Below the pieces are notes generated by a model. It saw only the letters and a program-made list of their open reading frames with translations, was not told the origin of the DNA and did not search any database. Positions 3,819 to 9,719 of a stretch of DNA of 24,283 nucleotides are shown here, piece by piece. Every line of letters starts with the position of its first letter. Within the stretch, counting starts at the first letter, position 1. Position numbers and translations under genes: made by a program. Source of the stretch: a virus (lineage: Duplodnaviria > Caudoviricetes); IMG/VR virus record IMGVR_UViG_3300035670_001209, positions 1 through 24,283 of that record. One strand, written 5' to 3'.

Positions 3819-4604
3819 GTGGCAGAAAAAAATACAATAACAATATACTGGTCTTGTCCAACTTTTAATTTTCAACAAGATTCCTGGAATATGCTCTATT
3901 CAGAGCCAGAGCCAGTAATGAATTATCTGCTAACAAAAAAGAAGCCTATTAAAGATAGAAGGATGAGCGTATTGTCTTGTCCAGCTTCAAATGACTTTTT
4001 TAAAAACTTATACGTATTTAGATCAACCATAAATGATAGCTGCACTTGGCCTGAAGGATATTTAAAAGCGGTGGCGGAAGAAATGGGCCCTAAGCAAATG
4101 GATGAATCTTTAGACTTAGATCCTTCATATGGAAATAAGATAACTTTAGTATCTCCAAGACCTTCTTCAGTTGAGGGCCATATAGATCTACTTTATAATC
4201 TATCTTGGATATTTTTTGCAGATGAGCCATTAGTGGCTAGATTTACTGCTCCATACTATCCACCATTTACCCCTATGGAGGGAGCAATTTTAACAAGCGG
4301 GCAGTTTGATATAGGTCAATGGTTTAGGCCTTGGAATTTAAACTATTTTGTTCCATATGATACTCCTGGATTTGAAATAAAAGAAAACGATCCCATATTT
4401 TATTTTCATGCATTTACAGATAAGAGAATTGTATTTAAAAGATTTAATTGTGTTCAATCTCTGCAGACACTATACAATGAATTTGTTAGATCTCCAGGAA
4501 GATATGAAAGATTTGTTCCTTTAGCCAAGAGATATGAATTAGCTAAAAAAACTAAAACACGAGAAATTATTCTTAAAGAAATTAAAAATAATCTAGTCGA
4601 CTAG
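3819..4604 (+). CDS. conserved hypothetical phage protein (possibly DUF6065/dUTPase-like fold)
   Basis: 261-aa ORF; SCPA...LYVF, GQFDIGQWFRP and IKENDPIFY motifs; weak resemblance to 21975..22688. Confidence 0.6.
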   Translation: MAEKNTITIYWSCPTFNFQQDSWNMLYSEPEPVMNYLLTKKKPIKDRRMSVLSCPASNDFFKNLYVFRSTINDSCTWPEGYLKAVAEEMGPKQMDESLDLDPSYGNKITLVSPRPSSVEGHIDLLYNLSWIFFADEPLVARFTAPYYPPFTPMEGAILTSGQFDIGQWFRPWNLNYFVPYDTPGFEIKENDPIFYFHAFTDKRIVFKRFNCVQSLQTLYNEFVRSPGRYERFVPLAKRYELAKKTKTREIILKEIKNNLVD

Positions 4605-4680: not shown

Positions 4681-4962
4681 ATGAAGAGTGAGAAGCTCTC
4701 AGTAGCTAAGCAAAAAGCTTATCTATATAAGTATATACGGGAATATAAGGAACGAAATCCTTGTGTTGACTGTAAGGTGCAATATCCCTATTATGTGATG
4801 GATTTTGATCACGTTCGGGGACGGAAGCACAAAAACGTCATGGAATTAGTTCCATCTCTCAGTAAAAAGAAAATAGATGAAGAAATAGCTAAATGTGAGG
4901 TAGTTTGCTCTAATTGTCATCGAATTCGAACACATCTAAGAAAAGAGAAGAAATCAGGATAA
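4681..4962 (+). CDS. HNH endonuclease-family protein
   Basis: CVDC...DFDHV...CEVVCSNCHRIRT. Confidence 0.85.
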   Translation: MKSEKLSVAKQKAYLYKYIREYKERNPCVDCKVQYPYYVMDFDHVRGRKHKNVMELVPSLSKKKIDEEIAKCEVVCSNCHRIRTHLRKEKKSG

Positions 4963-5830: not shown

Positions 5831-5903
5831 TGGACATTAGCTCAGCAGGCAGAGCGGGAAGCTGTTAACTTCTAGGTCCCAGGTTCGAATCCTGGATGTC
5901 CAG
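5831..5903 (+). tRNA. tRNA-Asn(GTT)
   Basis: cloverleaf: TGGACAT/ATGTCCA acceptor, GGAAG-CT GTT AA-CTTCT, TTCGAAT T-loop. Confidence 0.95.
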
Positions 5904-5904
5904 C

Positions 5905-5976
<72 letters not shown>

Positions 5977-5981
5977 CTCAG

Positions 5982-6055
5982 GCGGAAATAGCTTAGTTGG
6001 TTAGAGCCCCGAACTCATAATTCGGTAGTCGTAGGTTCGAGTCCTACTTTCCGCA
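5982..6055 (+). tRNA. tRNA with CAT anticodon (elongator Met or Ile2; not initiator)
   Basis: GCGGAAA/TTTCCGC acceptor (1-72 paired), CCGAA-CT CAT AA-TTCGG lacks initiator GGG/CCC. Confidence 0.9.
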
Positions 6056-6058
6056 CAA

Positions 6059-6550: not shown

Positions 6551-6818
6551 GTTCTATTACCATTACTGCCGCCGACATTGAATTTGCAGAAGATACTGCA
6601 TATAAATGTTCATAAGCAGATACTTCGATAGTAAATCCCTGACCTGGATACAATTTAAAGCCATAGTTGCTAGAAGATACGGCAGATGTGCCAAGATAAA
6701 CAAATCCTGAATCATTGGTATTCTGCACAACTAAAGTATTGGCCGATTGAACCGTATCTACAATTGTTAGCTCTGTTGGCGTTGATGTATTTAGAGACAC
6801 GTTGCGAGTTCTGATCAT
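6540..6818 (-). CDS. hypothetical small beta-rich phage protein
   Basis: start reassigned to MIRTRN (6818), 6 nt after TATAAT (6825-6830); LVVQNT...VYLG...YGFKL motif. Confidence 0.7.
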   Translation of the reverse strand: MIRTRNVSLNTSTPTELTIVDTVQSANTLVVQNTNDSGFVYLGTSAVSSSNYGFKLYPGQGFTIEVSAYEHLYAVSSANSMSAAVMVIERAI

Positions 6819-6836
6819 ATAGATATTATACCTCTC

Positions 6837-6935
6837 ATAAAGGACAAATCCCAATCGGAGGCGGATCCAATTGGGACTTGCTACGCCGAAGCGTATGCAC
6901 GAGGAGCAAACGGTGGGATGCTACGACCCGTGCAA
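6837..6935 (-). ncRNA. candidate structured small RNA (three hairpins)
   Basis: own promoter TTGACT-N17-GATACT (6969-6941); three abutting stems, cUUCGg tetraloop, G-U pairs only on minus strand, final stem followed by CCUUUUAU. Confidence 0.7.
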
Positions 6936-6977
6936 ATCTAAGTATCACATATCTTAAATTTTAAGTCAACTACTTTT

Positions 6978-7256
6978 TTATTCCCAGGAACTACCCTTCA
7001 TCCTATTTTCTAAATATTTCTCATCCCCCGTCAAATCGAATAGAAGGGTCATTAGACGGTTGCAGTCCTCATGCTTCCAGTAGAAGTAGCACTTGCTGTC
7101 TTTGACGCCGTGGCAATTTCCTAGCTGTTTTTCGAGGTATTCTACAATCCACCTAAGACCTCCATGTGCCATAGCGACATCATCATAAAAATTTTGAAAT
7201 TCTAAACGTGCTGAGTTCATATATCGAGTAATTTGATCGATATATATTTTATTCAT
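6978..7256 (-). CDS. hypothetical phage protein
   Basis: 92-aa ORF in tightly overlapping minus-strand operon. Confidence 0.7.
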   Translation of the reverse strand: MNKIYIDQITRYMNSARLEFQNFYDDVAMAHGGLRWIVEYLEKQLGNCHGVKDSKCYFYWKHEDCNRLMTLLFDLTGDEKYLENRMKGSSWE

Positions 7257-7473
7257 TCCATTTACCTAGAGGACAAAAAGCATCTTGCATTTTTGCTTTT
7301 GTGGGCATATGGCATCCACATTCTTTGCATACTCTTAACTTTTTTATAAAAGAGTCACATGCTTTACAGGCAAGAATCCTTTTTTCATATTGATCTTGCT
7401 GGACCCAAACAGTATTTGGATTAAATATTTGCCAAGGTCTTACTGGCTCTCTATCTTCTCTTCCGTCTCCCAC
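7249..7473 (-). CDS. small Cys-rich metal-binding protein
   Basis: CKAC...CKECGC...CPLGKW; start uncertain. Confidence 0.75.
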   Translation of the reverse strand: MGDGREDREPVRPWQIFNPNTVWVQQDQYEKRILACKACDSFIKKLRVCKECGCHMPTKAKMQDAFCPLGKWNE

Positions 7474-7685
7474 TGTTCCTCCTGAGAATCTTCTTGCGGG
7501 GTATAAGATGGGGCTGGGCCCAACAAATACCCTTCGCTGTGATATTTTATCATTTTTTCAACTTCTTCTGATCCAACTAATTTACTGGCAAGAATGGTCA
7601 TAACATCGTAAATACGATGTAGCATTATGTAATTAACCATATCTATGTTTTCTGCTAAATCTTTTTTTTCTTCTCTTTCAATCAT
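7440..7685 (-). CDS. hypothetical phage protein
   Basis: 81-aa ORF, AGGAAG SD. Confidence 0.75.
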   Translation of the reverse strand: MIEREEKKDLAENIDMVNYIMLHRIYDVMTILASKLVGSEEVEKMIKYHSEGYLLGPAPSYTPQEDSQEEQWETEEKIESQ

Positions 7686-7753
7686 TTTTTCTTCCTATAT
7701 CTTCCCAGAATTTTTCACGACCCATTTGGTCTGTTTCTTTTATTACTCCGCCG

Positions 7754-7960
7754 TCAGTTTCCTCTGATGACTTTTTCCATTCGTCCATACAGTTCTAATC
7801 CTATCTCTTTCTTATAATCACATGAAAGGCAGTATAGGTAAATTTTATCATCAATTGATTGATTAGGCATCAAAAGGCCTTGGTCTAATGGACAATCCAT
7901 TTTCGACACAAGGCCCTGTGATGCAAGGTCTAAATATTTGGACACAATCTGTATCCGCAA
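7754..7960 (-). CDS. small zinc-ribbon-like protein
   Basis: CPLD...CLSC; TTG start after AGGAG SD. Confidence 0.7.
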   Translation of the reverse strand: MRIQIVSKYLDLASQGLVSKMDCPLDQGLLMPNQSIDDKIYLYCLSCDYKKEIGLELYGRMEKVIRGN

Positions 7961-7972
7961 TTTATCTCCTAA

Positions 7973-8560
7973 CTACTTTGGAAATTGAGTAGCCAACTTC
8001 TTAGCTTTGCTAATTGAGTTTGGCCAGGATGACCAATCAATTCCGCCTTTAGTCATGTAATACGTTATCTCTGCGTTAATTACTGGATCAAACAGTAGTA
8101 CGTTTGATCTCAGTTCGAATTTCTCTCTACGATCATCGCCAAGGTTTCCCAGCATATTGATCTGAAAAATTCCGTAGGAACTGTCTCCAGTATTCCTGTT
8201 ACCGTTGTATGCCATTGGGCGCCCATTGGACTCCGCCTTGGCAATACCCCAAGCCATTTTAAGAGCTTGTCCTTCAAATCCTACAGCTTTGAGTAGTTGC
8301 AGCAACTCTTTATCTGTAAGCATTTCTGAAGGTTTGTATACAGTGTTGCTGAATTTTTCCAGCGTTTCTTTCTTCAGTTGTTTTGCTTGTAACTTTTGTT
8401 CTTGAGGAGACACAACCAGATACTGCGCCTTAACCTCTTGAACAAGAGCTTCAGCTGGCTGCATTGTTTCAGGCTGGACTCCGAACAGGAATAATGTTAT
8501 CATTCCTACAACGGTCCAACCGTGAGCAACTTCGCTCAGCTTTTGTTTGATATTCTCCAT
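7973..8560 (-). CDS. membrane-anchored lytic transglycosylase (SLT/lysozyme-like)
   Basis: IAKAES catalytic Glu motif, SYGIFQIN, LFDP..NA, W..W; N-terminal hydrophobic segment; AAAGGAGG SD. Confidence 0.85.
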   Translation of the reverse strand: MENIKQKLSEVAHGWTVVGMITLFLFGVQPETMQPAEALVQEVKAQYLVVSPQEQKLQAKQLKKETLEKFSNTVYKPSEMLTDKELLQLLKAVGFEGQALKMAWGIAKAESNGRPMAYNGNRNTGDSSYGIFQINMLGNLGDDRREKFELRSNVLLFDPVINAEITYYMTKGGIDWSSWPNSISKAKKLATQFPK

Positions 8561-8644: not shown

Positions 8645-9634
8645 ATGCTAATTTCATTTTCAACTCCAATAATTAACATGAAAACTAATAATGGCTATGG
8701 TCATGCTGGAACAAAAATAGTAGATTCATTAAAAGAATTAGGACATTCGGTAGGATTTCAATCTCCAAAAACTCCAGTCCAATTAAATTTTTCACAACCA
8801 GATTATTTTAAATTACATAGAAATCAATATCAAATAAGTTATACTCCTTGGGAATCAACTATAGTGCCAGAAAGATGGCGTGAATCACTAAGTTTGATTG
8901 ATGAAATATGGACAACTTCGGATTGGTGTGCAAATGTTTTTGAAGACAATGGATACAAGGATGTTCGTGTTTTCCCGCATGGAATTGATCCTATTTGGTC
9001 GCCCCGCCGCCGCCGTGAAGGTGATGTTATAAAGTTTTTGCATGTCGGCGAGCCAGCGCCACGGAAGGCGGGCCAAATGGTGGTTGACGCTTTTACAAAT
9101 CTTTTTGGCAATGATCCGAGATATTCTTTAACACTTAAAGTATATAAACATAATACTACTAGAATATATAATAATTATATAGATAAGAATATATTAGGTT
9201 TACCAAATGTCTTATATAATAATATATATATAATAGATAAAGATATGACTACTGAAGAATTAGTCAAATTGTATCATGATCATGATGTATTGGTCTATCC
9301 TTCATATGGAGAAGGATTTGGATTTATTCCATTACAAGCATTAGCTACAGGTATGCCAACAATTTGCACAAGTGGTTGGGCACATTATGAAAATTATCTT
9401 GGGCCATTAAAGTTAAACTCAGAATTGATAGATTCTCCTTGGCCATTTCCACATGAAGGAAAAGTCTTCGAACCAAACTATCAACATTTACTTGAACTTA
9501 TGAGAGATGTATCAATTAACTTTAAAGCTTATTCTGGATACTATTACGCTCAGTCAACTAAAATTCATGAAGATTACAATTGGTTACAGTTGACCAATAA
9601 TGCCTTTGATCATATATTCAAAAAGTTTTCTTAA
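8645..9634 (+). CDS. GT4-family (GT-B) glycosyltransferase
   Basis: NGYG N-terminal motif, RKAG, YPSYGEGFGFIPLQALATGMPTICT. Confidence 0.9.
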   Translation: MLISFSTPIINMKTNNGYGHAGTKIVDSLKELGHSVGFQSPKTPVQLNFSQPDYFKLHRNQYQISYTPWESTIVPERWRESLSLIDEIWTTSDWCANVFEDNGYKDVRVFPHGIDPIWSPRRRREGDVIKFLHVGEPAPRKAGQMVVDAFTNLFGNDPRYSLTLKVYKHNTTRIYNNYIDKNILGLPNVLYNNIYIIDKDMTTEELVKLYHDHDVLVYPSYGEGFGFIPLQALATGMPTICTSGWAHYENYLGPLKLNSELIDSPWPFPHEGKVFEPNYQHLLELMRDVSINFKAYSGYYYAQSTKIHEDYNWLQLTNNAFDHIFKKFS

Positions 9635-9719
9635 CCCCTTCCCCTCAGGAATAAAGTTTGCTAGAATTAGACTCTATCTAATTTTTAAATTTAACCGCAA
9701 GGCGGAGAAAAGGTGCTAT

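What the first reader, a model, noticed from the sequence alone, without database searches (positions are those of the whole stretch)
6837..6969. Candidate novel phage small RNA with own promoter, three hairpins and C-rich loops
Seen on the minus strand: TTGACT-N17-GATACT. Stem 1, UGCACGGG/CUCGUGCA (6934-6896), encloses AGCA/UGCU with loop UCCCACCGUU. Stem 2 is UACGC-UUCG-GCGUA. Stem 3 has 15 bp, GCAAGUCCCAAUUGG/CCGAUUGGGAUUUGU, with loop AUCCGCCU, followed by CCUUUUAU. Four pairs are G-U on this strand but A-C mismatches on the other, which points to RNA-level selection. The downstream gene has its own -10, so this looks like a free-standing RNA. Known: C-rich loops (UCCC, CCUCC) in Gram-positive sRNAs pair with SD sequences. 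Inference: a trans-acting translational regulator or protein sponge.
Basis: partly seen in the sequence, partly recalled or inferred. Interest (0 to 1): 0.75.

Follow-up and report, generated by a model that had tools for sequence, protein, structure and literature searches.

The report
Actinophage small RNA matching own leaders
A large group of uncultured phages of actinobacteria carries a conserved, folded ~100-base non-coding element that is not in Rfam, whose fixed six-base loop matches a short word next to the start codons of the phages' own DNA-polymerase and early genes, so it is likely a small RNA that tunes their translation (expression and pairing untested).

Summary
Window 6934-6839 (minus strand) folds into three hairpins (z -4.55) behind a TTGACT-17-GATACT promoter match. 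It has no Rfam match. I found 173 distinct copies; 15 of 23 pairs show compensatory changes. It occurs once in each of five complete WhiB-positive phages of 107-116 kb, ending the lysozyme/zinc-finger operon, with variable downstream genes. The first C-rich loop and UUCG hairpin are not family-wide. What is kept is the loop UCCGCC on the terminator-like last hairpin and, mostly, a U-bulge in hairpin 1. The complement RGGCGGA lies just before start codons of these phages' own genes: an unknown early gene (50 of 52 leaders, mostly too close to AUG to be a Shine-Dalgarno), dnaE (39 of 44 in the RNA-bearing type, 0 of 55 others) and a second early gene (35 of 39); control genes 0 of 65 and 0 of 115. 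Best reading: a trans-acting sRNA whose loop is an anti-Shine-Dalgarno with one base changed, which damps phage early and replication genes while sparing host GGAGG sites. Not shown: transcript, pairing, sign of regulation, loop-target covariation, host. New variant of a known kind (works like 6C, is not 6C).

The parts
6941..6969 (-). sigma-70/SigA-type promoter match TTGACT-17-GATACT with extended-10 TG; start of transcription predicted near 6934
   Evidence: -35/-10 pair in 157 of 173 distinct copies
6896..6934 (-). hairpin 1 (P1): covarying outer stem, conserved U-bulge motif (GG-UC-G-U-AG / CU-C-CC type), variable apical stem and loop
   Evidence: 7 of 7 outer pairs with double-sided changes; bulge motif matched in 151 of 173 copies, loop UCCCAC in 72 of 173
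6882..6895 (-). hairpin 2 (P2), UACGC-UUCG-GCGUA; covarying but optional
   Evidence: absent in L473, L863, L866, L867, L869-L871
6844..6881 (-). hairpin 3 (P3), long terminator-like stem
   Evidence: 98.3% of cells paired; 4 of 12 pairs with double-sided changes
6859..6866 (-). apex AUCCGCCU; open loop UCCGCC (6865-6860), the invariant element and predicted seed
   Evidence: loop bases predicted unpaired; in 116 of 130 distinct protein-anchored loci, all 14 misses cut short or chimeric; closing pair A-U to G-C in L510/L511 with the loop unchanged
6837..6843 (-). short U-rich tail CCUUUAU, predicted 3' end
   Evidence: U-rich tail in 147 of 173 copies
6825..6830 (-). TATAAT of the next, probably leaderless gene (ATG 6818); downstream genes vary between relatives
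   Evidence: downstream -10 within 60 nt in 109 of 173 copies
6978..8560 (-). upstream operon: SLT_3 lysozyme-like gene (7973-8560), 68-aa zinc-ribbon-like gene (7754-7960), phrog_12271 (7440-7685), DUF6171 (7249-7473), 92-aa unknown (6978-7256)
   Evidence: first three genes in 83 of 84 RNA-bearing loci; zinc-finger gene and RNA co-occur in 7 of 7 among 50 records
9695..9706 (+). AGGCGGA (9700-9706) 13 nt before the nrdJ start (9720): the loop-complementary leader site seen in this window, but it sits in a small covarying cis hairpin, so it is an ambiguous target

Best explanation
The element is a conserved three-hairpin non-coding unit, likely transcribed as a ~95-nt small RNA, whose invariant loop UCCGCC is predicted to pair in trans with RGGCGGA sites that lie beside the start codons of the phage's own early and DNA-replication genes and would block ribosome loading there. 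Shown: covarying structure, conserved promoter and tail, invariant loop, conserved complementary sites in orthologous leaders. Inferred: transcription, pairing (7 bp, about -12 kcal/mol), repression rather than activation, and its use as a feedback brake or timer on replication and early proteins. The loop is an anti-Shine-Dalgarno with the middle U changed to G, so it would read the phage's GGCGG sites and largely spare canonical GGAGG sites. The bulge in hairpin 1 is likely a protein-binding site; its partner is unknown.
For: Covariation: 95.5% of cells paired, 15 of 23 pairs with double-sided changes, slid controls at most 49.8%. The loop is retained while stems, hairpin 2, hairpin 1 or the promoter change or vanish. 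FAM8, an unknown ~100-aa early gene with its own -10 and a ~22-nt non-coding leader: RGGCGGA in 50 of 52 distinct leaders, GGCGG ending 2-3 nt before AUG in 36 of the 50, tandem copies in 9. dnaE: GGCGG in 39 of 99 distinct leaders, i.e. 39 of 44 of the DG[LY]NSP type found in RNA-bearing genomes and 0 of 55 of other types (counted by eye). FAM9 35 of 39. Controls: SLT 0 of 65, zinc finger 0 of 115, phrog_12271 3 of 97. AGGCGGA 16 against 1.1 expected before starts, AGGTGGA 1 against 0.8, although both pair equally with the anti-SD (-9.9 and -10.0). GGCGGR in 38 of 975 ATG genes of 7 RNA-bearing genomes against 1 of 416 in 5 records where the RNA was not found. RGGCGGA in 2 of 620 genes of two streamlined actinobacterial genomes. 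Where the site overlaps an upstream frame it often uses GCG, the rarest Ala codon (756 of 13,037). RNA present in 9 of 9 complete genomes that carry FAM8.
Against: No transcript or pairing data. The loop hexamer did not vary in any copy recovered, so loop-target covariation could not be tested. RNA-bearing genomes form one clade, so the counts are not independent and the Fisher P of 2e-5 overstates. Of the 5 comparison records only G009 is near complete, and G010 shares only 2-4 gene families. In 2 of 7 RNA-bearing records dnaE lacks the site (GGAGG in G006, GGTGG in G008), and G006 has only 2 such ATG leaders. Helicase (16 of 36) and FAM98 (16 of 28) carry it only in part, mostly within the last codons of an upstream gene. 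The nrdJ site (104 of 117) is explained by a cis hairpin that keeps its pairing when the motif is lost. In dnaE and FAM9 the word sits at ordinary SD spacing and could be a weak SD. Start codons were called by my own heuristic. A 7-bp seed is short.
Confidence: 0.58

Rival explanations
1. Same pairing, different source or sign: hairpin 3 is mainly the terminator of the lysozyme/zinc-finger operon, and the loop acts from the mRNA 3' end or a processed fragment; or the pairing activates or stabilises the targets instead of repressing them.
For: 16 of 173 copies lack a recognisable promoter and some lack hairpin 1, yet keep the loop. The lambda sRNA LPR1/PreS enhances dnaN translation (10.1101/2024.10.31.621285, abstract and section titles). 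In nrdJ the site lies in a hairpin that pairing could open.
Against: 157 of 173 copies keep a dedicated promoter and most keep the hairpin-1 bulge. The FAM8 site lies between SD and AUG, where a bound RNA would obstruct the 30S subunit.
Confidence: 0.15
2. RGGCGGA is a start-associated sequence read by a phage or host protein (on RNA or DNA), like the SAS of cluster K mycobacteriophages; the reverse copy in the hairpin is a DNA site or a coincidence, and the RNA works through its hairpin-1 bulge as a protein decoy.
For: SAS elements are oriented, start-adjacent and conserved by gene family, with unknown partner (PMC3203893, passages). The hairpin-1 bulge is conserved in 151 of 173 copies and recalls the TAR U-bulge (U23-A27-U38 triple in PMC6379670, passages; the likeness is my own by-eye comparison).
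Against: The motif is only 6-7 nt. The complement is displayed exactly as an open loop on the transcribed strand, with wobble pairs on that strand (258 G-U against 1 A-C). A decoy for a GGCGGA-binding protein would need the opposite strand.
Confidence: 0.12
3. GGCGG is just a weak Shine-Dalgarno variant inherited in one clade to keep these genes low, and the loop is conserved for an unrelated reason (terminator stability, nuclease or protein recognition).
For: SD-like spacing in dnaE and FAM9, swaps with GGAGG or AAGGAG in some orthologues, one clade only.
Against: The middle C is fixed where U would be equally weak. FAM8 spacing of 2-3 nt and tandem copies do not fit an SD role.
Confidence: 0.1
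4. The RNA acts on the host: it pairs with host mRNAs or mimics the 16S rRNA 3' end (YGGAUC-CG-CCUCY against UGGAUC-A-CCUCC) to bind a ribosome-associated factor.
For: By-eye likeness to the 16S end of five streamlined actinobacterial genomes. A strong host-type promoter suggests early expression.
Against: The flanks that make the likeness vary with compensation. RGGCGGA is rare before host-type starts (2 of 620). The true host is unknown.
Confidence: 0.05

Closest known systems
6C sRNA (B11) of Actinobacteria, Rfam RF01066
   Same: Small hairpin RNA of the actinobacterial world whose C-rich loops pair with G-rich 5' UTR/RBS sequences without a chaperone; targets include dnaB (PMC6486639, passages read).
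   Different: No match to RF01066. One conserved loop UCCGCC on the terminal hairpin instead of several C-run loops; phage-encoded; candidate targets are phage genes.
C-rich-loop sRNAs of Firmicutes (RNAIII, RsaE/RoxS, LhrC; recalled, not from a call)
   Same: Seed displayed in a hairpin loop, pairing at ribosome-binding sites.
   Different: Those read canonical SD-like GGGA/GGAG words on host mRNAs; this loop reads the non-canonical GGCGGA. No Rfam match.
Lambda LPR1/PreS sRNA
   Same: Phage-encoded trans-acting sRNA linked to DNA replication (10.1101/2024.10.31.621285, abstract and section titles).
   Different: Found through RIL-seq in E. coli and enhances host dnaN translation; here the candidate targets are phage mRNAs and repression is predicted. 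Sequences were not compared.
Start-associated sequences (SAS) of cluster K mycobacteriophages
   Same: Oriented motif just upstream of start codons, conserved by gene family, partner (RNA or protein) unknown (PMC3203893, passages).
   Different: SAS is a 13-mer containing GGAG; here a 7-mer with a matching phage-encoded RNA loop.

Membership tests
6C RNA (RF01066) | Match to the covariance model | tested here: not met
   No match at gathering score in the window or at E<=10 in 6700-7100
6C RNA (RF01066) | Two or more loops with runs of C | tested here: not met
   Longest run in the window copy's loops is CCC; loop 1 UCCCAC in only 72 of 173 copies
6C RNA (RF01066) | Chromosomal gene of Actinobacteria | tested here: not met
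   Model R1: 0 of 151 genomes of the class sampled, a search without a positive control; hairpin-3 pattern in 2 contigs of the genome collection, both phage-like contigs also fetched by the phage protein
Trans-acting loop-pairing sRNA (works-like class) | Own promoter, terminator-like end, covarying structure | tested here: met
Trans-acting loop-pairing sRNA (works-like class) | Exposed conserved seed complementary to conserved sites at ribosome-binding regions | tested here: met
Trans-acting loop-pairing sRNA (works-like class) | Loop-target compensatory changes | tested here: inconclusive
   Loop hexamer invariant in all copies recovered; G006 and G008 dnaE lost the site without a loop change
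Trans-acting loop-pairing sRNA (works-like class) | Discrete transcript and regulation of targets | not testable with these tools
   Only assembled contigs of one run of doubtful type were offered
HDV-like / theta ribozyme | P1.1 GG after P1 and a P2 pseudoknot closing after J4/2 (features recalled) | tested here: not met
   Bases after P1 are variable (AU, UU, GU, AA) and no complementary P2 is seen in alignment A1 (by eye); no Rfam match
Candidate structured RNAs of Fremin et al. 2023 (PMC10690425) | Listed among their viral candidate structures | tested here: inconclusive
   0 hits for four loop words in the readable supplements; the two alignment archives and one table were not searched, three further files were too large

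The most novel reading that the evidence does not exclude
A private anti-Shine-Dalgarno: a phage clade has rewritten the ribosome-binding regions of its polymerase, helicase and key early genes to a one-base variant (GGCGG) and encodes a small RNA whose loop is the matching variant anti-SD, giving a chaperone-free regulon orthogonal to the host's GGAGG sites that times or caps phage DNA replication.
Probability: 0.45. Interest if true: 0.86.

Novelty: new variant of a known kind. Interest (0 to 1): 0.74.

Why it matters
Phage-encoded trans-acting sRNAs with identified targets are few; in the review passages I read (PMC12197685) the examples come mostly from proteobacterial phages, and the words 'actinobacteri', 'mycobacter' and 'streptomyces' do not occur in it. 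Here an undescribed RNA family and a candidate multi-gene regulon can be read from sequence alone, in a widespread clade (about 590 zinc-finger-anchored stretches in a partial scan). It offers a concrete answer to the open question of what reads start-associated motifs in actinophages, is testable with reporters in laboratory actinobacteria, and would be a compact orthogonal translation switch.

Tried and rejected
Rfam: only three tRNAs in the window; a miRNA chance hit (E 2.1) in the region. blastn against annotated phages: only short chance matches. The downstream protein found no relatives. A loose two-loop pattern in bacterial genomes gave chance hits; model R1 matched 0 of the 100 of those 120 loci tested. 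Expression: no RNA holder listed; the one run offered holds a relative's contig over 6839-7256 and says nothing on expression. HDV-like ribozyme and 16S-end mimic readings were considered and set aside (see tests). A second copy per genome: none in 5 of 5 complete genomes. Cultured syntenic relatives (Streptomyces phages Blueeyedbeauty and Comrade, Stanwilliamsviridae) gave no significant R1 match (best E 0.23 and 0.046); their helicase leaders lack the word, and dnaE starts were not located by my script. G065 proved 57% GC and was dropped as a host stand-in. 6C was not found in six small actinobacterial genomes. FAM8: no Pfam or PHROG family, no Atlas hit at 0.9 or above, four-helix model with best Z 5.4, uninformative. 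Zinc-finger protein: only weak likeness to RPB9-type zinc ribbons (E 0.06 and above). A free-loop pattern scan of the metagenome collection returned 2 stretches; the one I read has the standard loop. Literature searches listed no paper whose title or abstract start describes this RNA.

Full report
Observation. The promoter match, three stems, four G-U pairs and downstream -10 are in the sequence as described; the tail has three U, not four. The minus strand folds at -46.3 kcal/mol with z -4.55, the plus strand at -36.8 with z -2.44. Rfam gives only three tRNAs in the window and one chance miRNA hit at E 2.1 near the element.

Setting. The window is a 24-kb virus record with an SLT_3 lysozyme-like gene, a glycosyltransferase, a class II ribonucleotide reductase, tRNAs and virion genes. 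Five complete relatives (G001-G005, 107-116 kb) each encode WhiB, the marker used for actinophages in PMC6802176 (passages), and each holds one copy of the element. The zinc-finger gene and its gene order have counterparts in Streptomyces phages of the Stanwilliamsviridae, which gave no significant match to the RNA model. The exact host is not known.

Family. Two pattern scans and three protein-anchored scans gave the homologues. On 62 representatives, 95.5% of 1,417 cells pair, 15 of 23 pairs change on both sides, and slid controls pair at most 49.8% (the structure was derived from these sequences and they are related, so the shuffle counts are not probabilities). The element follows SLT_3, zinc-finger and phrog_12271 genes in 83 of 84 loci, while the genes directly before and after it vary, which fits a free-standing unit rather than a leader. 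Among 173 distinct copies, 157 keep a -35/-10 pair, 151 the hairpin-1 bulge, 147 a U-rich tail, 72 the first C-rich loop and 28 the UUCG (these copies were selected by the apex 8-mer). Hairpin 2 is missing in several members, leaving a ~75-nt two-hairpin core. The test that does not select for the loop is the protein-anchored set: 116 of 130 distinct loci have UCCGCC in a hairpin loop. Of the 14 misses, 12 end within 1,000 nt of the anchor, one ends just after the upstream gene and one is chimeric at a sequencing adapter; six more loci whose anchor my script missed all have the 8-mer. In L510 and L511 the whole stem and the closing pair have changed while the six loop bases have not. In the genome collection the hairpin-3 pattern occurs in 2 contigs, both also fetched by the phage protein, and model R1 matched 0 of 151 sampled genomes of an actinobacterial class.

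Candidate targets. The complement of the loop occurs before start codons in these phages. In G001-G005, AGGCGGA appears 16 times in the -18..-1 window against 1.1 expected, AGGTGGA once against 0.8, though both pair alike with the anti-SD. The sites fall in orthologous genes: DnaE-type polymerase and DnaB-type helicase, a small gene before the helicase (FAM98) and two early-region genes of unknown function (FAM8, FAM9). With more orthologues: FAM8 has RGGCGGA in 50 of 52 distinct leaders, in a short non-coding leader behind its own -10, ending 2-3 nt before AUG in 36 (GGCGG end), in tandem in 9; one miss is a wrongly called start, the other has GGTGG. FAM9 has it in 35 of 39. dnaE has GGCGG in 39 of 99 distinct leaders from a partial scan (120 of about 900 stretches); by eye these are 39 of 44 of the DG[LY]NSP type and 0 of 55 of other types. 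Helicase has it in 16 of 36 and FAM98 in 16 of 28; SLT in 0 of 65, zinc finger in 0 of 115, phrog_12271 in 3 of 97, glycosyltransferase in 1 of 41. Genome-wide, GGCGGR precedes 38 of 975 ATG genes in seven RNA-bearing genomes and 1 of 416 in five records where the RNA was not found. In 800 kb of two streamlined, rhodopsin-bearing actinobacterial genomes, RGGCGGA precedes 2 of 620 ATG genes, and five such genomes have the canonical 16S end. All 9 complete FAM8-bearing genomes carry the RNA.

Against. The RNA-bearing phages are one clade, so the counts are not independent; only one comparison record (G009) is near complete and one (G010) is barely related. G006 and G008 carry the RNA with the usual loop, but their dnaE leaders read GGAGG and GGTGG. 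The nrdJ site, the one target-like leader site seen in the window (9700-9706), is in 104 of 117 leaders but belongs to a small hairpin whose variants keep pairing and drop the word, so I do not count it. Helicase, FAM9 and FAM98 sites often overlap the last codons of an upstream gene. No loop variant was found, so loop-target covariation is untested. Starts were called by my own purine-weighted rule, which is blind to C versus U. There is no expression evidence either way.

Mechanism. Shown: structure, orientation, invariant exposed loop, conserved complementary sites. Inferred: a host-type promoter makes a stable ~95-nt RNA ending at hairpin 3; its loop, with the closing pair opened, forms 7-8 bp (about -12 to -13 kcal/mol against -7 for a GGAGG site) over or next to the SD of phage early and replication mRNAs and lowers their translation as the RNA accumulates. 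I favour self-regulation over superinfection exclusion because the sites are kept rather than escaped. The hairpin-1 bulge probably binds a protein; its likeness to the TAR bulge is my by-eye comparison (triple described in PMC6379670, passages).

Comparison and novelty. It works like 6C, whose C-rich loops bind G-rich ribosome-binding sites including that of dnaB without a chaperone (PMC6486639, passages), but fails the membership tests. Lambda LPR1/PreS links a phage sRNA to replication but activates a host gene (abstract and section titles). The leader word resembles the start-associated sequences of cluster K phages, whose partner is unknown (PMC3203893, passages). Seven literature searches listed no description of this RNA, but the alignment archives of PMC10690425 could not be read, so it may be an unnamed entry there. 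Two earlier notes of this scan report loop-to-leader matches at operon ends in other actinophages; I saw them after forming this reading, did not check them, and do not count them as support. Verdict: a real, undescribed structured RNA family with a specific, testable regulon; new variant of a known kind; interest 0.74.

Noticed in passing
window 9695-9706 (+), upstream of nrdJ: Small hairpin (CCGC-AAG-GCGG type) just 5' of the nrdJ Shine-Dalgarno, with compensatory variants across 117 distinct leaders; a separate cis element.
   Followed up: partly
window 5831-6056 (+): tRNA-Asn, -Thr and -Met genes converge on the operon that holds the RNA; in some relatives a tRNA gene directly abuts hairpin 3.
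   Followed up: no
window 7754-7960 (-): 68-aa protein with a predicted zinc-ribbon fold weakly like RPB9 (E 0.06); co-occurs with the RNA in 7 of 7 records and has distant homologues in Streptomyces phages.
   Followed up: partly
L570 and L554 (early regions of G005, G001): Many early-gene leaders share a CAACNAACGAAAGG-like word.
   Followed up: no
L776-L855 (FAM8 loci): FAM8, the best candidate target, is an unknown four-helix protein with a conserved D-H-W-F-N-P motif, no family match and its own promoter.
   Followed up: partly
L960 about 8880-8906 and L961 about 8285-8310: Two Streptomyces phages share a short conserved stretch after the end of the syntenic operon that, on the opposite strand, resembles the hairpin-1 bulge; not significant (E 0.42).
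   Followed up: no
L502 about 4150-4230: The contig contains a sequencing-adapter stretch and is chimeric beyond it.
   Followed up: yes
L470-L473, L704-L710, L915-L916: Contigs of this phage family sit in genome bins labelled Bacteroidia, Saccharibacteria, Brevundimonas and cyanobacterium; probably mis-binned, so these labels are not host evidence.
   Followed up: no
window 4681-4962 (+): HNH endonuclease gene before the tRNA cluster; its family is in 45 of 84 RNA-bearing loci.
   Followed up: no
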